Positions 1 through 7,826 of a DNA stretch of 21,537 nt are shown here, piece by piece. The position numbers and the translations under genes are program-made. The DNA is from a virus (Duplodnaviria; Heunggongvirae; Uroviricota; Caudoviricetes). The notes beneath the pieces are model-generated. The model did no database searches and was not told the DNA's origin. It saw nothing but the letters and a program-made list of their open reading frames with translations. How positions within the stretch are numbered: position 1 is the stretch's first letter; every line of letters begins with the position of its first letter. The DNA lies in IMG/VR virus record IMGVR_UViG_648276671_000007, positions 1 through 21,537 of that record. One strand, written 5' to 3'.

Positions 1-160
1 CCCTGCGGGCCTTGCTCGCCCTGAGGACCGGTGTCACCTTTGGGACCTGTTTCACCCTGCGGGCCACGCTCACCCTGTGGACCCGTGTCGCCTTTGGGAC
101 CTGTTTCACCCTGCGGGCCTTGCTCGCCCTGAGGCCCCGTGTCGCCTTTGGGACCCGGTG
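1..160 (-). repeat. Tandem DNA repeat of about 54 bp encoding the collagen-like Gly-X-Y triplets of the fibre protein
   Basis: Near-identical 54-nt units are visible directly (for example ...ctttgggacctgtttcaccctgcgggcc... recurring); minus-strand translation is [14 protein letters not shown](Q/R)GPQ repeated. Confidence 0.8.
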
Positions 161-767
161 TTTTTGCTATCTCTTTCGCTTCTTCCAGCGCTATCTTCGC
201 ACCAGATTCATGCAACTCTGCATCTTTTGCAGCCTGTTCAGCACGCTCTGCATCCTGTGAAACCGAGAATACAATTTGTTCCACGTACTTTTTATCTTCG
301 GCAACCGCATCAGCGTTCTGCTGTATCTTACCCGCCAGTACCAGGCAGTCGTCCTTTATCTGCTGTGCATCAGCAACGTGTTGCCTGGCCTGTTGCTCGC
401 TTCCCGCTGCCGCTTCAGCGCTCTGCTGCGCCTGCGCCACCATTTCCTCAAATCGCTTAACAACATCCGGTTTCAGATCGCCTTCATCGAGGGCAGTCAG
501 AAAGTCATTCAGCGTTCCGGGTTGTGAGTCTTCGTAAACCGAAATATCTCCGACACAATATTCCCTTTGAATACACGACCGAAGATAAACGTCATATCTT
601 CCGTTCTGCGCCTCAAAAGCATATTCTCCTGTCGCCCCTGTCACTACTGTAGCCACCGTACTCATGACAACTGCAGATGTATTCTGTCGGGCTTTCAGAA
701 TAATATGGTATCCGGACATGGGGAGTCCCGCGCCATCAATCAGCGCACCTGATATTAATACCGACAC
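1..767 (-). CDS. Side tail fibre protein, lambda Stf-like N-terminus followed by collagen-like Gly-X-Y repeats; partial, 3' end lies beyond the left edge of the window
   Basis: Manual minus-strand translation gives an open frame from a GTG at 765-767 (AGGU 7 nt upstream) to position 3, with an internal ATG at 717-719. N-terminus ...[29 protein letters not shown]...[14 protein letters not shown]... matches the remembered lambda Stf N-terminus (MAVKISGVLKDG...IQLKARRNS...[14 protein letters not shown]). Downstream are [19 protein letters not shown] repeats. Absent from the ORF track because no stop codon lies inside the window. Confidence 0.75.
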
Positions 768-2089: not shown

Positions 2090-2558
2090 AGTATTTCAGC
2101 TCCAGTGTGAACGTTTTATTCTTCGGCGCACCGCCGGGAAGAAAGGACGTGGTGTTATCTGAATAGGCGGTCGCCACGAAATACCCCATCACATCACCAG
2201 TGCTCGAGACCAGAAGGTGCGGGGCCGGATTGTCATCCACCATCTGAACCAGTGAATTAAGGGCATCCATTCCCACACCGTCACGAAATCCTGCATGTAC
2301 CATACCGTCAAGGCTTATCGTTCTGGCGCTCTTGCCGGTATACTGCAGCAGGTCGTTCTTTCCGATAAGCTGCTGTTCGTCCCATCGCCATTCCATGGTG
2401 CGCTTCATGGCGTTATAGGCTGCCGTATCAATACTGAATTCAAACTCACCAAACGACAGCATGACGCGGGAAGCCACCTCCGTTAATGAGCCCACTGCGT
2501 CCCATGCTTCGCGCTCAAGCCGGTTTACGCCCCAGCCCAGTAAATCCACCATCTTCAC
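2064..2558 (-). CDS. U: P2 gpU-like tail protein
   Basis: 164 aa; sits between tape measure and X; C-terminal motif TFTLELKYYGE resembles the gpU family; ATGA overlap with the tape-measure stop. Confidence 0.7.
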   Translation of the reverse strand: MKMVDLLGWGVNRLEREAWDAVGSLTEVASRVMLSFGEFEFSIDTAAYNAMKRTMEWRWDEQQLIGKNDLLQYTGKSARTISLDGMVHAGFRDGVGMDALNSLVQMVDDNPAPHLLVSSTGDVMGYFVATAYSDNTTSFLPGGAPKNKTFTLELKYYGEKLADH

Positions 2559-4207
2559 CCCCAGGATTCATAACCATCAGTCATACGGGAACGCTGGCCA
2601 AAATTAATATCCCCCAGATTTTTCGTTACCCTGTCTGCCAGTTGTCCGGCATCCTCGCCGGGCTTCTGAGTGATGTTAAATTCCGCCCGTATCTGATATG
2701 TGGGTTTTACTTCCACCTGGCTGATACTGCCTGGTGTATACTGAAGAGCTGAGAGGGGATCCGAATTACCCTGCCCCGGATCTGCTGCATGAAGTCCATC
2801 AATGTAGGTGCGGGATTTCTCTTTTATCGCCTTAAAATCAGGTTCTTCTTTCGGCCCCAGCATAGGGTCGAGAAATGCATCAAACTTTTTATCGTCATGA
2901 TTCCAGGGGAGATAACTGCGCGTGTCTTTATAAGCCTGTACAACCTGTTTCGTCAGGTCCGGATTTTGCCTGAGCAGTTCATCAAACCATTCTCCCTGGC
3001 CGTTTTTCTGCGCCACCGCTCTCGCCAGCTCCGGTGACCCCATTTTTGCCAGATATTCCAGTACCTCTCGCCGGTCCTCTCGCGGACCATCTGCCAGCCC
3101 CCACTCAATGGCTTTCTGCGTTATTCCGGCAAGAACTTTTCCGAATTTCCACATCCATGCGATCATGTCGATCAGCGCCGGCAGGGCATCATCGCGGATA
3201 AATGCCCGGATTTTTTCCAGTCCACCATCCTTAAACCAGGCCGCAAGGTCATCCGTCACCTGTTGAATATGGGGTCCGAGCTCCTTCCCCAGTTGCCCGC
3301 TGATTTCATCAATGGAAGAGCTCAGAACATTACGGAGATTTGACAGCGCCATATGTCCCTGAACCGCGCCATCAGCCCCGGCCTTTGTCACCAGGTTATA
3401 GCGTTTTTGTTCGCTGATAAGCTCCCGGTAAGTTTTTCCTGACAGACGCATCCAGGTCAGAATTTTATTGGCTTCTCCACCAAACAGTGCATCTGCCATC
3501 CCCGCCGCCTGCTGCTCATCCTTTACCTGCAGTAAGCGATCAAACAAAAATTCGACCTGCTCCTGGTTGTTTTTTCCGGCCATTACACCCGCTTTCAGCC
3601 CCAGTTTGCCGAAAACATCCTGAATAGCCCCTTTATCTGATGCGCCATTGTCATCATCAAAAACCTTGTTCCGGTACTCCTCAAACAAATCACCAAAGTT
3701 TTCGCCGTTCAGCCCCATCTGTCGGCCCAGTGAATCCCACGCCACGTAGGTTTCATAGTCCACCCCGTAGCTCCGCGCTATCCCTGCCCGCTCTGCCGTT
3801 TCCGAATTCCGGTTCAGTACCGCGCTGGCACCTGCTGCCAGCATCATCCCGGAACCAACCGAAAGCCCGAGCCCGGTTTTAAGAACAGTCCCGGTCCGTC
3901 CTTTCCAGCGAGCCAGGCGCTCTGCCCGTTCAAGCTGGCGATTAAACCGCTCCTGCTCAGTTGCAGCATCATTGATTTTCCGCTTCAGCTTTTCATACCG
4001 CTTTCGCAGATCGGTAATATCCTGCCCGGCCAGCACGCCAGCCTGAATTTTTCGTTTCAGTACGTCCTGCTGACGCGTCAGGCGTGCCACTTCCCGTGTC
4101 GCACCAGCCAGACCTCGCTTCAGTCCCTCTGTCGATTTTTTCCACGACGGGTCAATGGTGCCACCGATCCGGATATTCGCTCTGAGCTTATCGCCGACCG
4201 TTGCCAT
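2555..4207 (-). CDS. T: Tail tape measure protein (550 aa)
   Basis: Long ORF directly downstream of the E/E' chaperone pair; Ala/Gly/Leu-rich central region typical of tape measure proteins; start overlaps the end of the predicted E' extension. Confidence 0.8.
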   Translation of the reverse strand: MATVGDKLRANIRIGGTIDPSWKKSTEGLKRGLAGATREVARLTRQQDVLKRKIQAGVLAGQDITDLRKRYEKLKRKINDAATEQERFNRQLERAERLARWKGRTGTVLKTGLGLSVGSGMMLAAGASAVLNRNSETAERAGIARSYGVDYETYVAWDSLGRQMGLNGENFGDLFEEYRNKVFDDDNGASDKGAIQDVFGKLGLKAGVMAGKNNQEQVEFLFDRLLQVKDEQQAAGMADALFGGEANKILTWMRLSGKTYRELISEQKRYNLVTKAGADGAVQGHMALSNLRNVLSSSIDEISGQLGKELGPHIQQVTDDLAAWFKDGGLEKIRAFIRDDALPALIDMIAWMWKFGKVLAGITQKAIEWGLADGPREDRREVLEYLAKMGSPELARAVAQKNGQGEWFDELLRQNPDLTKQVVQAYKDTRSYLPWNHDDKKFDAFLDPMLGPKEEPDFKAIKEKSRTYIDGLHAADPGQGNSDPLSALQYTPGSISQVEVKPTYQIRAEFNITQKPGEDAGQLADRVTKNLGDINFGQRSRMTDGYESWG

Positions 4208-4627
4208 AACACTGCTTCCTCTCTTCCGCCTCTGCCAGCATCATTGTCACAAAATCCTCATACGGCAGTGTCATCACATCTCCGGGTGACCACCCGAACC
4301 ATACTCCGGCACGCCGTATCGCCATCAGGATGTTTTCTTCTTCCGCCGGACCGGCGGCAGCAAAAAAACATTAAACTGCCGCTCCAGGGCCAGGTAATCA
4401 CACGCTTCCATGTTCATCATATCCGCCGCGTCCATCCCGCACAGACCGGCAATCATATCCAGATCGGCCTCAGCTTCCGGTTTGGTACTCCGCCGATGCA
4501 ACAGACGATCGCGGACGGTAGGCGCTCGCATGGTAACGTGCGTGATCGTCTGTCCTGATGCGGCGACATACGGCACGGATAACACAATTTCCACGCTGCT
4601 GGCAGGAACGCTGTTTTTTTCCGACAT
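4188..4627 (-). CDS. Predicted E+E' fusion product made by a -1 programmed frameshift at the slippery site 4361-4367
   Basis: mRNA reads AAU GUU UUU UUG CUG; heptamer U_UUU_UUG at 4367..4361. The -1 frame is open from the heptamer for about 56 codons (AAAGPAEEENILMAIRRAGVWFGW...NGRR) to a UAA at 4188-4190, overlapping the tape-measure start. Same topology as the P2 E/E' and lambda G/GT frameshifts. Confidence 0.6.
4325..4627 (-). CDS. E: P2 gpE-like tail assembly chaperone (zero-frame product)
   Basis: About 100 aa between tube and tape measure; ends ...NVFLLPPVRRKKKTS; contains the U_UUU_UUG slippery heptamer near its 3' end. Start preferred at ATG 4625-4627 (GGAG 6 nt upstream) rather than ATG 4631-4633. 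Confidence 0.7.
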   Translation of the reverse strand: MSEKNSVPASSVEIVLSVPYVAASGQTITHVTMRAPTVRDRLLHRRSTKPEAEADLDMIAGLCGMDAADMMNMEACDYLALERQFNVFLLPPVRRKKKTS

Positions 4628-4637
4628 AAGCATCTCC

Positions 4638-4667
4638 TTTAAAAAAGAAAAGGCGGCCAGAGCCGCC
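4638..4667 (-). terminator. Intrinsic terminator-like hairpin plus U-tract between the tube gene and the E chaperone gene
   Basis: Minus-strand sequence AGGCGGC-TCTG-GCCGCCT followed by TTTCTTTTTTAAA; lies between the tube stop (4688) and the E start. Confidence 0.55.
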
Positions 4668-4687
4668 TGAATGACAGGATCCCCGGA

Positions 4688-5206
4688 TTAAACCCGGATG
4701 ATTTTTTTCAGATCCGCCAGAACATTAACGCCGTTAATACGACGTACAAATTCCTCCGGAATAATGCAGATGGTTTCCACACCGTCGACAGTCTGACGGT
4801 AATAACTCAGCGACATTTCCACCGTCACCGAAGCCTCAGCCTGTGACGTTGCCGGGCGCGCATCCGGCGTGATACTGGTGATCATCCCCTGCAGGATTTC
4901 CACCTGTCCGCTGGTCGCATTCCCCACCTGATAACCCTGGCGGACAACAATCTCCGGCGAATAAAGTCCGGCCTGTAATCCCAGCAGCGTCAGCATGGCA
5001 ACATCGTAGCCATAAATTTTAAACGAGCAGGTCAGCGCTTCCATACCGTCATCCACTGCCACTGGTGCATCCATTGCGCCGGTTTTGATATCCACTGTCG
5101 TGATATTAATGGCAGGCGGCGTGTATTCATGCGCCCCCTGAAGACGGATCCCGCCAGGAAGAAATAACGCCCATGCGCGCAACAGTTTTTTTTCACCCGT
5201 AATCAT
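4688..5206 (-). CDS. FII: Contractile-tail tube protein (P2 gpFII-like)
   Basis: 172 aa immediately downstream of the sheath gene with ATGA overlap; size and position as for P2 FII. Confidence 0.8.
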   Translation of the reverse strand: MITGEKKLLRAWALFLPGGIRLQGAHEYTPPAINITTVDIKTGAMDAPVAVDDGMEALTCSFKIYGYDVAMLTLLGLQAGLYSPEIVVRQGYQVGNATSGQVEILQGMITSITPDARPATSQAEASVTVEMSLSYYRQTVDGVETICIIPEEFVRRINGVNVLADLKKIIRV

Positions 5207-6678
5207 ACCGTCAGTTCCTCCAGCGCCAGTTTATTGTTAATCATTGCCCGCAGTGTCAGGCGCTCCAGTGGTGACTTCGGCCCAAAGTCATAATCGATAT
5301 ACAACTGCCCTGCCGCCAGGGTTTCTGCTGTATTCAGTTCATCATTCAGCCAGGCGCTGCCACCGTGGATCGCACCCAGATTTTTAAGCTGACGCATATA
5401 GGCATTAATGCTGCCAAGAATGTCGTCTGCCACATCCCGATCAAGCGGGCGATCGACATAAGGCAACATGGCCTCCTGGATACTGTCCTCAATCACATCT
5501 GCAGTGCGACGTACCGACTCAAAGCGCCACTGACTGTGGGATGAGCACAGACGGTTACCCCAGTGTTTAAAACCGTCATGGCGAATAATGGTGGAGATGT
5601 TTTCCATGTTCAGCAGGTTTGCCGTGCAGTTCTGCTCCCCGAGAATAAACGTATCCACCTGCTCCAGACCGGTGATATTCATCACGTCCTGGTTTGATTT
5701 GGACCACCACCACCCTTTTTCATAATCAATACGGGCACGCAGCCCGGCAGCACGAGCCGAATATGGACGAAATACCGTTTGCCCGCTGTCATCCGTCACT
5801 GACACGCGCGGACGCAGCAGCTCCACACGCCCGCCAAATGACGCGCGCCGCTGAACCACATCCTGCGACGTTGACATTGAGGGCGAGTCAATATAGGCCA
5901 CAGCACGCAACTTCGCGGCATACGTTTCCAGCGCCTTTGCCACGCCATCATCCTCACTGTACCCCGTGGCAATGAGGATGCGCGGTTGATAGCCTGTCAC
6001 GCCCTTACTTTCTGTCAGCGCCTCCATGGCCTGAATCACCGCCGCACGCTGTTCGCCCTCTTTCGCCTTTGTTTTACTTTCTGCGCGCACCACAATCACC
6101 AGCGCACCAGTCTGGTCAAAAATATCACGCAGGGCCGGGTATAATGTTCCGGCGGTGCCCAGTTTCCCTGCCTGAGTAATGGCCCCTGCCACCACCACCG
6201 GTGTATTGACCGGGAACGCCTCATCTTCTCCGCCGGATAACGTCAGGCTGAACGGCGACACCACTTTATTTTCAGCGCCTCCTGCATTCAGAGTGCTGAC
6301 CGCCGCCGTCACAGGCGAATCCCCCAGCGCATTCACCACTTCAGTCACACGGTCAGCCGTGGCGTTAATCTGGCTGTGTTCGTCCGTCCCCAGCGTTATC
6401 GTCAGGGTTGTGCCTTTCAGCGATGCCGCTGTCTGCGCGTTTTGTTCTGTGGCAGCCACGGCAACAACCGAAATCTTATTACCGACCCGACCTTCCTGTT
6501 TCGCCGTGAAATCCAGCGCCGTTCCCAGCAGCCAGGAGCCGGCTGTGCCGGAAGCGCACACGCCACCAGAGGCGTATGGCGCTGTCCCCACCAGGCCAAT
6601 CACTGCCGTGGAGATGGTCTGCACGGCAACCGTGCCTGTCGTCAGTTCAATGGTTTCAACACCATGTAGTCCGGACAT
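5203..6678 (-). CDS. FI: Contractile-tail sheath protein (P2 gpFI-like)
   Basis: Start chosen at ATG 6676-6678 (MSGLHGVETIELTTGTVAVQTISTAVIGLVGTA), with GGGAGA SD upstream; matches the P2 FI N-terminus ([34 protein letters not shown]) and C-terminus (LYIDYDFGPKSPLERLTLR versus LYIDYDYTPVPPLENLTLR). The 541-aa ORF in the track carries an unsupported 50-aa N-terminal extension. Confidence 0.9.
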   Translation of the reverse strand: MSGLHGVETIELTTGTVAVQTISTAVIGLVGTAPYASGGVCASGTAGSWLLGTALDFTAKQEGRVGNKISVVAVAATEQNAQTAASLKGTTLTITLGTDEHSQINATADRVTEVVNALGDSPVTAAVSTLNAGGAENKVVSPFSLTLSGGEDEAFPVNTPVVVAGAITQAGKLGTAGTLYPALRDIFDQTGALVIVVRAESKTKAKEGEQRAAVIQAMEALTESKGVTGYQPRILIATGYSEDDGVAKALETYAAKLRAVAYIDSPSMSTSQDVVQRRASFGGRVELLRPRVSVTDDSGQTVFRPYSARAAGLRARIDYEKGWWWSKSNQDVMNITGLEQVDTFILGEQNCTANLLNMENISTIIRHDGFKHWGNRLCSSHSQWRFESVRRTADVIEDSIQEAMLPYVDRPLDRDVADDILGSINAYMRQLKNLGAIHGGSAWLNDELNTAETLAAGQLYIDYDFGPKSPLERLTLRAMINNKLALEELTV

Positions 6679-6691
6679 ACATTTCTCCCAT

Positions 6692-6714
6692 AAAAAAACC
6701 GCCCTTAAGGCGGT
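6692..6714 (-). terminator. Intrinsic terminator-like hairpin plus U-tract between tfa and the sheath gene
   Basis: Minus strand ACCGCC-TTAAG-GGCGGT followed by TTTTTTT, in the 55-bp gap between the tfa stop (6734) and the sheath start (6678). Confidence 0.55.
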
Positions 6715-6733
6715 CTGTTGATTAACTTCTTTT

Positions 6734-7264
6734 TCAGGTGTTCTGTGGAGGTGCTGGCCACTCAATGGCGTTATAAGACGATTCATCAGTAACCTGACTG
6801 AAATCAAGCGATTTAAGTGCCCTGGCATAAAGCAGCCATGCCTTCAATTGTTCTTTGTCATCATCACTGATAATTTCAAGAATCAATTCAGCCTTCCAGT
6901 CAGAAGTGATATCTGCAGCACGGGAATACAACCAACGTCGATGCTCTTCTGCTTTCTGCTGATAATTGACAGACTTAGGCACAATCTTTCCATCAATATA
7001 CAACCAGTTTCCATCAATTGACATCTCTGCAGGAACTGCACTGACTGCAACTTCAGCCACACTCGCGTTAACAGGAAACAAGGAGGAAACATCCTGACTA
7101 AAACTGATAATTACATTACTGTTGTCATAAACGACTTTAACCGTATCAGGAGAAAATAATTTCTGACATTCATACCAGTCCTGTCCGTCTTCAGACATAA
7201 GGTAAGATGCATTTACGAGCATGTTTTCTGGTGTGTAAGGTTTAAAACTCTTAATATTCAGCAT
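6734..7264 (-). CDS. Tail fibre assembly protein (Tfa / P2 gpG-like), copy 2
   Basis: 176 aa; ...YTPENM...SEDGQDWYE...PDTVKVVYDNSNVI...IEWPAPP resembles P2 gpG ([30 protein letters not shown]...EWPEMP). Confidence 0.8.
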   Translation of the reverse strand: MLNIKSFKPYTPENMLVNASYLMSEDGQDWYECQKLFSPDTVKVVYDNSNVIISFSQDVSSLFPVNASVAEVAVSAVPAEMSIDGNWLYIDGKIVPKSVNYQQKAEEHRRWLYSRAADITSDWKAELILEIISDDDKEQLKAWLLYARALKSLDFSQVTDESSYNAIEWPAPPQNT

Positions 7265-7281
7265 ATTTTACCTTTTGATAT

Positions 7282-7812
7282 TTAATGTGAATTCTCAGGA
7301 TCACAAGGCCATTTAATACTATCAAATGACGATTTATCATGAATGTGATTAAAATCAATATTCTTTAAATTTCTGATGTACATCCGCCATAATTTCAGCA
7401 TTTCTTTTTCCCCATTATTAATTATTCCCAGAAGTAAATCTGTTTTCTTGTCGGATATTTCCCGTTCAGCAATCGCCGTAAGACGTGCTCGTTCCGACTC
7501 AGCCAGCAGTCTGTAATCAACAGGAACCGGCAGTACTTCACCGTCTTTATAATACCAGCGCGCCTCTATACAAAAGCCATCCGGTAGTTCATCCACTTCC
7601 ACAATGGTGAAACCTGCCGGATAAAGCCGGGATACGTCTTCCGCCATTGAATAAATAACACCGGTTTCAGGATGCGTGCACAGCTTGTATTTCTTCGCGA
7701 ATTTATCCAGTGATTCATAAAAATCCTGCCCGTCTTCACTACGGAAATACTGAACACCTTCACCATAAGGCATGTTTTCCGGGTAATAACGCGTGACATT
7801 TCTGAGTTCCAT
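7282..7812 (-). CDS. Tail fibre assembly protein (Tfa-like), copy 1
   Basis: Paralogous to the neighbouring tfa (YYPENMPYG...SEDGQDFYE...IKWPCDP). Start preferred at the internal Met (MELRNVTRYYPENM) at 7812 rather than the ORF-track start at 7848. Confidence 0.75.
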   Translation of the reverse strand: MELRNVTRYYPENMPYGEGVQYFRSEDGQDFYESLDKFAKKYKLCTHPETGVIYSMAEDVSRLYPAGFTIVEVDELPDGFCIEARWYYKDGEVLPVPVDYRLLAESERARLTAIAEREISDKKTDLLLGIINNGEKEMLKLWRMYIRNLKNIDFNHIHDKSSFDSIKWPCDPENSH

Positions 7813-7826
7813 TATTTTTGCCTTAA

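What the first reader, a model, noticed from the sequence alone, without database searches (positions are those of the whole stretch)
6734..7812. Two tandem, same-orientation tail fibre assembly paralogues downstream of the H fibre gene
Both ORFs have the Tfa signature (YxPENM, SEDGQDW/FYE, terminal I(E/K)WP). The H protein has a P2-like C-terminal tip. Only one chaperone is normally needed per fibre, so the second may be a relic of fibre-cassette exchange or may serve the Stf-like fibre encoded at the left end. The same orientation argues against a Gin/Cin-type invertible segment.
Basis: partly seen in the sequence, partly recalled or inferred. Interest (0 to 1): 0.4.

Follow-up and report, generated by a model that had tools for sequence, protein, structure and literature searches.

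The report
Two tandem tail-fibre chaperone genes
An E. coli prophage carries two intact, same-strand tail-fibre chaperone genes after its fibre gene: the first is the fibre's matched partner, and the second belongs to a rare lineage found only in this second position and kept by selection, with an unknown role.

Summary
Minus-strand ORFs 7282-7812 (Tfa1) and 6734-7264 (Tfa2) are both intact 176-aa members of the Tfa family (PF02413, like Mu U and P2 G). They are 37% identical. They lie 17 nt apart, each has a ribosome-binding site, and they close the fibre operon just before an intrinsic terminator and the sheath gene.

No invertase gene, crossover site or inverted repeat is present.

Tfa1 is the cognate chaperone. 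Its fibre-binding N-domain is 95-97% identical wherever the fibre tip is at least 79% like this one. That includes prophages and a phage (Rac-SA53) that carry a single Tfa.

Tfa2 is not a pseudogene. dN/dS is 0.20 against a second tandem lineage and about 0.1 against a third, and the predicted fold is confident and Mu-U-like. Every relative at least 65% identical sits second, behind another Tfa, once behind an unrelated tip.

Among 123 other loci with Tfa2 relatives, same-strand tandems occur only in this lineage.

Tfa2 is not tied to the Stf-like fibre. That fibre has its own DUF4376 chaperone, and single-Tfa relatives have the same fibre and chaperone.

Best reading: a heritable two-Tfa module with a maintained accessory chaperone. 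A hitch-hiking relic of cassette exchange remains a serious rival. Interest is modest.

The parts
7827..9083 (-). Tail fibre gene H (418 aa). It has a conserved baseplate-attachment N-terminus and shaft, and a hypervariable receptor-binding tip encoded at about 7827-8220.
   Evidence: PF12571 at aa 4-148. phrog_6859/454. The tip matches 9cuy_c and the shaft matches Mu S. The tip region is only 66-86% identical to the nearest relative, while the flanks are 98-100% identical.
7282..7812 (-). Tfa1, the cognate tail-fibre assembly protein (176 aa). The N-domain (aa 1 to about 100) is matched to the H tip. The C-domain (7282 to about 7527) is a low-GC, swapped module ending in IKWP.
   Evidence: PF02413. 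5YVQ_B match at E 1e-11. The N-domain is 95-97% identical in every locus whose tip is at least 79% like H. It is 74% identical to the single Tfa of Rac-SA53. C-domain GC is 0.36.
7265..7281 (-). 17-nt spacer between tfa1 and tfa2 carrying an AAAGG ribosome-binding site 7-8 nt before the tfa2 ATG.
   Evidence: Read from the sequence.
6734..7264 (-). Tfa2, a second intact tail-fibre assembly protein (176 aa). It belongs to a clade seen only in second position.
   Evidence: PF02413 at 88.5 bits. 5YVQ_B match at E 7e-21. AF2 pLDDT 91.8, with Foldseek 5yvq_B TM 0.82. dN/dS 0.20 and 0.08-0.14. Context survey.
6689..6716 (-). Intrinsic terminator (GACCGCC-TTAA-GGGCGGT followed by a T-run) that closes the fibre operon after tfa2.
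   Evidence: Terminator scan and the sequence itself.
5203..6678 (-). Tail sheath gene, the start of the next operon (context). The longest ORF, to 6828, overlaps tfa2 and is an artefact. The true start is at 6678, behind a GGGAG ribosome-binding site.
   Evidence: PF04984/PF17482. Relatives are annotated at 491 aa.
1..767 (-). 5' part of a second, lambda-Stf-like fibre gene (phage_tail_N plus collagen repeats). It runs off the window at a scaffold gap (context).
   Evidence: PF08400 at E 5e-55 and PF01391. N-run in the source scaffold. The gene continues and is followed by a DUF4376 chaperone in L009.

Best explanation
The region is the end of a P2-type fibre operon (gpW-J-I-H-tfa1-tfa2-terminator) in a prophage of E. 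coli TA280.

Tfa1 is the specific chaperone of the H fibre. Its variable N-terminal domain caps and holds the C-terminal tip of the H trimer. Its helical C-domain brings three chains together so that folding starts at the C-terminus, as in Mu.

Tfa2 is a complete, co-transcribed second Tfa from a separate lineage. It is inherited together with the C-domain of the upstream Tfa as a 'two-Tfa module'. New tip plus N-domain cassettes recombine into this module.

I commit to Tfa2 being a functional accessory protein rather than debris. The H tip is the only tip in this phage with the ...QxxINGxW ending that Tfa-type chaperones accompany. Tfa2 therefore most likely acts on the H tip through features that do not depend on the tip's variable surface, as a back-up or broad-specificity chaperone or as a tip cap.

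Shown: gene integrity, operon layout, Tfa1-tip co-variation, purifying selection on Tfa2, its second-position-only distribution, absence of an inversion system, and independence from Stf.

Inferred: that Tfa2 binds H, and what that binding achieves.
For: - Both ORFs are full-length PF02413, and both are homologous to Mu U, 5YVQ_B.
- The Tfa2 model has pLDDT 91.8, an N-domain superposing on 5yvq_B (TM 0.82, rmsd 2.0) and a C-terminal helical hairpin.
- The layout is compact: RBS, 17-nt spacer, and a terminator only after tfa2.
- Tfa1 N-domain is 95-97% identical in every locus whose tip is at least 79% like H, including the single-Tfa loci E10 and A10. Its closest phage match is the single Tfa of Rac-SA53, at 74% over the whole protein.
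- Tfa2 against the STEC309-type copy shows 34 synonymous and 32 non-synonymous changes, dN/dS 0.20, Fisher p 2e-9. The STEC309-type copy against the L024-type copy (the latter 65% aa-identical to Tfa2) gives dN/dS 0.08, p 6e-24.
- All relatives at least 65% identical are second-position genes. These are the W/STEC005/L033 type, the STEC309/L115 type and the L024-26 type. In the last, the upstream tip and Tfa are unrelated.
- First-position relatives reach only 55-60% N-domain identity.
- Between the two E. coli lineages the block from Tfa1 C-domain to Tfa2 N-domain is the most diverged part (75-81% nt) and sits between conserved flanks. This implies recombination among tandem-bearing phages.
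- Both genes are intact in all 10 complete E. coli genomes that have the pair. Variants are seen on more than 100 contigs each.
- Literature: the Tfa N-domain binds the tip, and TfaMu stays on the virion (PMC9608196, PMC10579305).
Against: - Prophages with the same backbone and tip class carry only the Tfa1-type gene (A10; also E10 and Rac-SA53). Tfa2 is therefore dispensable for assembling this tip, if those prophages are viable.
- The Tfa2 N-domain does not co-vary with the H tip. One residue changes against STEC005 although the tip differs by 15%, and it stays 72% identical behind an unrelated tip. There is thus no positive evidence that it binds H.
- One genome (CP101983) has tfa2 frameshifted.
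- Purifying selection could partly predate the move to second position.
- No binding or expression data exist.
Confidence: 0.45

Rival explanations
1. Tfa2 is a hitch-hiking relic. An ancestral fibre tip and its chaperone Tfa2 were resident. A new tip plus Tfa1 cassette was then recombined in upstream, orphaning Tfa2. Later exchanges cross over in the H shaft and in the first Tfa gene (or in the last ~45 nt of tfa2). Tfa2 is therefore simply carried along without a present function.
For: - Cassette exchange is visible. Against a single-Tfa relative, homology is lost at about 8100 in H and resumes only in the last ~45 nt of tfa2.
- The Tfa2 N-domain class ('YECQK') normally follows other tips, such as ...GIIVQDTGSNSADNIGGIYYRQVQYCINGTW.
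- Same-tip prophages do without it.
- One frameshifted copy exists.
- The stretch from the Tfa1 C-domain through Tfa2 has lower GC (0.36-0.44) than the backbone (0.53-0.57), suggesting foreign origin.
Against: - dN/dS is 0.08-0.20, with no stop or frameshift across lineages whose dS runs from about 0.4 to saturation.
- Three diverged versions all sit in second position, and no first-position copy above 60% N-domain identity was found in any collection searched.
- The gene keeps its own RBS and lies inside the operon.
- Both genes are intact in 10 of 10 complete genomes.
Confidence: 0.33
2. Tfa2 is an alternative tip-bound partner. Tfa proteins of this family can stay on the mature fibre, so Tfa1 and Tfa2 would compete for the H tip. 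This would give two kinds of fibre tip, and two receptor specificities, from one lysate without DNA inversion.
For: - TfaMu remains on the virion and is proposed to contact the receptor.
- Both genes are co-transcribed.
- The two C-domains in each tandem pair are unusually dissimilar, 30-41% against about 50-60% among single Tfas. This could keep the two proteins from mixing in one trimer.
Against: There is no evidence of binding. The Tfa2 N-domain does not track the tip. Same-tip phages lack it.
Confidence: 0.1
3. Tfa2 is the chaperone, or a co-chaperone, of the Stf-like second fibre encoded after gpD.
For: - In the L024-26 lineage the Tfa2-like gene lies about 40 nt upstream of an Stf-like gene.
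- Hybrid chaperones with a Tfa2-like N-domain (48-55% identity) fused to DUF4376 follow Stf-like fibres in lambdoid prophages.
Against: - In the source genome the Stf-like gene is followed, with overlapping stop and start, by its own DUF4376 chaperone.
- Its tip (...TANGTTLFQRIR) lacks the QxxINGxW ending.
- Single-Tfa relatives A10 and BMH-17-0027 keep Stf plus DUF4376 without Tfa2.
- The L024 Stf has a different, enzyme-like C-terminus.
- Chaperones of this family lie downstream of their fibre.
Confidence: 0.06
4. The pair is part of a Gin/Cin/Hin/Pin-type invertible host-range segment, or a recent remnant of one.
For: About half of the loci with Tfa2 relatives in IMG/VR do carry convergent Tfa pairs typical of invertible segments.
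Against: - The two genes are on the same strand.
- No inverted repeat of 22 nt or more lies nearby, and the crossover-site core has 0 hits.
- No resolvase or invertase domain appears among called genes for 10 kb on either side in the source contig.
- No tip fragment lies between or after the Tfa genes.
Confidence: 0.01

Closest known systems
Phage Mu tail fibre S with its assembly protein U (TfaMu; PDB 5YVQ), and P2 H/G
   Same: Both ORFs are homologues of Mu U (E 7e-21 and 1e-11). They share its architecture of a variable tip-binding N-domain and a conserved helical C-domain. The gene order W-J-I-H-tfa-terminator-sheath-tube is that of P2.
   Different: Mu and P2 express one Tfa per fibre form. 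Mu's second copy (U') is inverted and used alternately through Gin. Here two diverged Tfas sit on the same strand and are co-expressed from one operon, with no inversion machinery.
Escherichia phage Rac-SA53, and E. coli prophages of strains A10 and E10 (single-Tfa carriers of the same tip)
   Same: The fibre tip is 86-90% identical. The Tfa is 74% identical overall in Rac-SA53, and its N-domain is 95-97% identical in A10 and E10.
   Different: They carry only the Tfa1-type gene and no Tfa2.
Tandem pairs in E. coli STEC005/STEC309-type prophages and the metagenomic L024-26 lineage
   Same: They share the tfaX-tfa2 same-strand arrangement. Tfa2 identity is 99%, 85% and 65% respectively.
   Different: The STEC309 type has a diverged Tfa1 C-domain and Tfa2 N-domain. 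The L024-26 type has an unrelated tip and first Tfa, and an Stf-like gene directly downstream instead of a sheath gene.
T4 gp57A plus gp38 (two chaperones for the long tail fibre) and T2 gp38 (a chaperone that stays on as adhesin)
   Same: This is a precedent for more than one helper per fibre, and for a helper that remains at the tip (PMC9608196).
   Different: Those proteins are unrelated to each other and to PF02413. Here the two helpers are paralogues.
Shigella phage SfIV 'additional tail fiber assembly protein' (ORF-22)
   Same: It is a second annotated Tfa next to the first, and it has been proposed to affect host range (PMC3851460).
   Different: In SfIV the second gene is convergent and abuts an IS element, as expected for the remnant of an invertible segment. 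It is not a same-strand tandem.

Membership tests
Caudovirales tail fibre assembly protein (PF02413; Mu U / P2 G / lambda Tfa) | Profile match above the curated threshold | tested here: met
   Tfa2 scores 88.5 bits and Tfa1 57.5 bits against a cut-off of 22.1. Both match phrog_136 over its full length.
Caudovirales tail fibre assembly protein (PF02413; Mu U / P2 G / lambda Tfa) | Two-domain architecture: an N-terminal beta-sandwich tip-binding domain and a C-terminal helical domain | tested here: met
   The Tfa2 AF2 model has pLDDT 91.8, strands to about aa 96, then helices at 101-128 and 134-151. Its N-domain matches 5yvq_B with TM 0.82. Tfa1 was tested by sequence alignment to 5YVQ_B only.
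Caudovirales tail fibre assembly protein (PF02413; Mu U / P2 G / lambda Tfa) | Encoded immediately downstream of, and co-varying with, the fibre tip it serves | tested here: inconclusive
   Met for Tfa1: it starts 15 nt after H, and its N-domain is 95-97% identical wherever the tip matches. Not met for Tfa2: it follows another Tfa and does not co-vary with the tip.
Caudovirales tail fibre assembly protein (PF02413; Mu U / P2 G / lambda Tfa) | Binds the fibre C-terminus and is required for trimer assembly | not testable with these tools
   This needs co-expression or complex prediction. Only monomer prediction was available.
Gin/Cin/Hin/Pin invertible host-range segment | Serine invertase gene adjacent to the fibre region | tested here: not met
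   No resolvase or invertase Pfam family appears among called genes in the 21-kb source locus. The window otherwise encodes head and tail genes.
Gin/Cin/Hin/Pin invertible host-range segment | Inverted crossover sites flanking alternative, oppositely oriented tip plus tfa cassettes | tested here: not met
   No inverted repeat of 22 nt or more lies near the region. The AAACCNNGGTTT core has 0 hits with one mismatch allowed. Both Tfa genes are on the same strand, and there is no second tip fragment.
P2-type tail fibre operon | Gene order W-J-I-H-G ended by a terminator, followed by the sheath/tube operon and E, T, U, X, D | tested here: met
   Pfam families GPW_gp25, Baseplate_J, Tail_P2_I, Phage_tail_fib, Caudo_TAP, sheath, tube, TAC_7, GpU, tail_X and late control D occur in that order. 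The terminator lies at 6696-6716. The difference is two G-like genes, and the head genes are lambda-like.
T4-type two-chaperone system (gp57A + gp38) | Homology to gp57A or gp38 | tested here: not met
   Both ORFs hit only Tfa-type families and Mu U.

The most novel reading that the evidence does not exclude
Tfa2 and its relatives form a dedicated 'second-position' Tfa lineage. It would recognise the invariant C-terminal motif of this tip family (...QxxINGxW) rather than the variable surface. It would then act as a generalist helper or cap that lets the phage accept newly recombined tips. Alternatively it would stay on the fibre as an alternative adhesin, giving two specificities without DNA inversion. 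Either way it would be a previously unrecognised functional class within the Tfa family and a mechanism that promotes fibre-cassette exchange.
Probability: 0.2. Interest if true: 0.6.

Novelty: new variant of a known kind. Interest (0 to 1): 0.35.

Why it matters
Tail-fibre chaperones limit how freely receptor-binding tips can be swapped, both in nature and in engineered phages and tailocins. A swapped tip normally needs its matching chaperone. A second, tip-independent Tfa that is stably inherited next to the exchangeable cassette would, if functional, be either a natural aid to host-range evolution or a simple way to display two tip states. It could also be a useful part for retargeting phages. 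If it is only a passenger, the locus still gives a clear map of where fibre cassettes recombine: in the H shaft, in the middle of the first tfa gene, and in the last ~45 nt of tfa2. It also shows that the N- and C-domains of Tfa proteins are shuffled independently.

Tried and rejected
- **Inversion system.** I searched for inverted repeats in 6400-9400 and in the whole window, and for the conserved invertase crossover core. Nothing was found.
- **Stf link.** blastn hits of tfa2 to 'DUF4376' genes suggested a connection. They turned out to be hybrid chaperones with a Tfa-like N-domain (48-55% identical) fused to DUF4376, in lambdoid prophages. The DUF4376 proteins of this phage lineage show no similarity to Tfa2. 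Single-Tfa relatives keep Stf plus DUF4376.
- **First-position close relatives.** I looked for a close Tfa2 relative directly behind a fibre, to identify its cognate tip. GTDB representative genomes gave at most 45% identity. The 5.8-billion-protein search gave single-context relatives of at most 53%. IMG/VR and metagenome scans gave none above 52% outside the tandem lineages.
- **L025-type tandem.** It was not found in complete E. coli genomes, so its host and wider context remain unknown.
- **SfIV.** Its 'additional tail fiber assembly protein' is a convergent remnant next to an IS element, not a tandem.
- **Within-lineage dN/dS.** There were too few substitutions to be informative.
- **Literature.** Searches for descriptions of tandem Tfa genes found none in the held library. 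This is weak negative evidence only.

Full report
**What is there**

All genes of the window lie on the minus strand. They form a lambda-like head module followed by a P2-type tail module:
- gpW (10552-10908)
- gpJ (9663-10577)
- gpI (9080-9670)
- fibre H (7827-9083)
- two Tfa genes
- a terminator
- sheath (5203-6678)
- tube (4688-5206)
- gpE-like (4325-4633)
- tape measure (2555-4207)
- gpU, gpX and gpD (792-1880)
- the 5' part of a lambda-Stf-like fibre (1-767)

The two ORFs of the finding are Tfa1 (7282-7812) and Tfa2 (6734-7264), each 176 aa. Both are full-length PF02413 proteins (88.5 and 57.5 bits against a cut-off of 22.1). They are 37% identical to each other. Both are homologous to Mu U in PDB 5YVQ (E 7e-21 and 1e-11).

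**Operon anatomy**

Read 5' to 3' on the minus strand:
- H ends in TAA.
- Tfa1 starts 15 nt later, behind AAGG.
- Tfa1 ends in TAA.
- A 17-nt spacer carries AAAGG.
- Tfa2 follows and ends in TGA.
- A GC-rich hairpin with a T-run lies at 6716-6689.
- The sheath gene then starts behind GGGAG.

There is no terminator between H and tfa2. Both Tfa genes should therefore be co-transcribed with H, in the position that gene G holds in P2.

**No inversion system**

No inverted repeat of 22 nt or more lies near the region. The AAACCNNGGTTT core of hix/gix/cix sites is absent even with one mismatch allowed. The source contig is scaffold GL884362.1 of E. coli TA280. It shows no recombinase domain among called genes for 10 kb on either side. 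There is no second tip fragment.

**Which chaperone belongs to the fibre**

In this family the variable N-terminal domain binds the fibre tip, and the conserved C-terminal helices mediate oligomerisation. TfaMu also stays on the virion (PMC9608196, PMC10579305).

I paired every Tfa in 140 fetched places with the last 80 aa of the ORF upstream. Every fibre whose tip is 79-90% identical to the H tip is followed by a Tfa whose N-domain is 95-97% identical to Tfa1 and about 32% identical to Tfa2. This set includes prophages with a single Tfa (E10 and A10). Phage Rac-SA53 has a tip 86% identical and a single Tfa 74% identical. A backbone relative with a different tip carries a phiP27-type Tfa instead. 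Tfa1 is therefore the cognate chaperone. Its C-domain, by contrast, is freely exchanged (dS 0.8-1.2 against 0.24-0.5 for the N-domain).

**What Tfa2 is**

Tfa2 is not a pseudogene. Its AF2 model has mean pLDDT 91.8. The N-domain superposes on TfaMu (TM 0.82, rmsd 2.0 over 104 columns) and is followed by a two-helix C-domain.

| Comparison | Result |
|---|---|
| Tfa2 vs STEC309-type copy (85% aa) | 34 synonymous and 32 non-synonymous changes; dN/dS 0.20; Fisher p 2e-9 |
| STEC309-type copy vs the L024-type copy (itself 65% aa-identical to Tfa2) | dN/dS 0.08; Fisher p 6e-24 |
| Tfa2 vs L024-type copy, C-domain only | dN/dS 0.14; dS saturated over the whole gene |

The distribution is the striking part. 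Every protein at least 65% identical to Tfa2 lies in second position behind another Tfa:
- The window/STEC005/IMG-VR L033 type.
- The STEC309/L115 type.
- A metagenomic type, L024-26. Here the upstream tip (...IRLRPIQYLINGNWITASYL) and the first Tfa are unrelated to those of the window, and an Stf-like gene follows directly.

First-position relatives reach only 55-60% N-domain identity, and they follow a range of other tips. Among 80 IMG/VR, 32 metagenome and 11 GTDB loci holding Tfa2 relatives, same-strand adjacent Tfa pairs occur only in the Tfa2 lineage. About 40 of those loci have the convergent pairs typical of invertible segments.

In complete E. coli genomes the pair is present and intact in 10 of 5426, and tfa2 never occurs alone. 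Protein variants are recorded on more than 100 contigs each. One genome carries a frameshifted tfa2.

**Mosaic structure**

Against STEC005, the sheath gene and tfa2 are 98-100% identical and tfa1 is 93-98% identical. The stretch 7740-8220, covering the H tip and the first codons of tfa1, is only 66-86% identical.

Against STEC309, the most diverged block runs from the Tfa1 C-domain to the Tfa2 N-domain (75-81%). It lies between better conserved flanks. This pattern is expected if tandem-bearing phages recombine with one another.

Against a single-Tfa relative, homology breaks at about 8100 in H and resumes in the last ~45 nt of tfa2. Those positions mark the cassette junctions.

GC falls from 0.53-0.57 in the backbone to 0.36 in the Tfa1 C-domain and 0.38 in the Tfa2 N-domain. 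Within each tandem pair the two C-domains are only 30-41% identical, compared with about 50-60% among single Tfas.

**The Stf idea**

The window's left end is a scaffold gap inside the collagen repeats of the Stf-like gene. Beyond the gap the gene continues. It is followed, with overlapping stop and start, by its own DUF4376 protein. Its tip lacks the QxxINGxW ending. Single-Tfa relatives of the same phage keep Stf plus DUF4376. Tfa2 is therefore not tied to Stf.

The blastn similarity of tfa2 to some 'DUF4376' genes comes from hybrid chaperones. These have a Tfa-like N-domain (48-55% identical to Tfa2) fused to a DUF4376 C-domain, and they occur in lambdoid prophages.

**Interpretation**

Tfa1 as the cognate chaperone is well supported.

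For Tfa2, four things argue for a maintained function: purifying selection, a conserved second position across three lineages with different first Tfas and tips, co-transcription, and evidence of recombination among tandem modules. Three things keep the relic reading alive: the existence of same-tip phages without it, the lack of co-variation with the tip, and one frameshifted copy.

I put about 0.45 on a functional accessory Tfa acting on the H fibre. The mechanism is inferred: tip-sequence-independent help or capping. The other readings get:
- about 0.33 on a hitch-hiking relic
- about 0.1 on an alternative tip-bound adhesin
- about 0.06 on service to Stf
- about 0.01 on an inversion remnant

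**Novelty**

Both proteins are ordinary members of a well-known family, and genome pipelines already annotate them as such. What appears undescribed in the library I could search is a stable, same-strand two-Tfa module whose second member forms its own lineage. I rate this a new variant of a known kind, of modest interest unless a function is shown.

Noticed in passing
window 1-767 (minus strand); L009 11114-14027: A second, lambda-Stf-like fibre gene (phage_tail_N plus collagen GXY repeats) follows gpD. The window ends at an assembly gap (N-run) inside the collagen repeats. Beyond the gap the gene continues and is followed by its own DUF4376 chaperone, and then by host genes (zinT, msrPQ-like, hiuH, a two-component system).
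   Followed up: yes
L007 3555-4220 and L008 3544-4218 (E. coli lambdoid prophages): Hybrid chaperones carry a Tfa-type N-domain (48-55% identical to the Tfa2 N-domain) fused to a DUF4376 C-domain. They lie downstream of Stf-like fibres. The tip-binding and oligomerisation modules of fibre chaperones are evidently shuffled across families.
   Followed up: partly
window 7740-8220: The H tip plus the first ~25 codons of tfa1 are a divergence hot-spot. They are 66-86% identical to the closest E. coli relative, while flanks on both sides are 98-100% identical. This is consistent with recombination or diversifying selection at the receptor-binding tip.
   Followed up: partly
window 7225-7450: GC drops sharply to 26-28% across the Tfa1 C-domain, the spacer and the start of tfa2. 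The backbone is 53-57% GC. This suggests that the block was imported from a lower-GC donor.
   Followed up: partly
window 5203-6828 and 7282-7848: Two longest-ORF artefacts. The sheath ORF extends 150 nt upstream over the terminator and into tfa2 (true start 6678). The tfa1 ORF extends 36 nt into H (true start 7812). The source annotation (EGI41079.1, 188 aa) and the gene caller used the long forms.
   Followed up: yes
L024 909-2735: The Stf-like protein downstream of the Tfa2-like gene in the metagenomic lineage has the usual phage_tail_N attachment domain. Its C-terminal part is long, non-fibrous and enzyme-like, and has no Pfam match. It may be a depolymerase-type receptor-binding domain.
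   Followed up: no
L027 (E. coli CP101983) 3178-5536: In this relative tfa2 is frameshifted (128-aa and 65-aa pieces), and no gene was called where H should be. The fibre region of this prophage copy appears to be decaying.
   Followed up: partly
window 2555-4207: The 550-aa protein in the tape-measure position is annotated 'hypothetical' in relatives. It matches only phrog_3654 (unknown function) strongly, with weak tape-measure hits.
   Followed up: no
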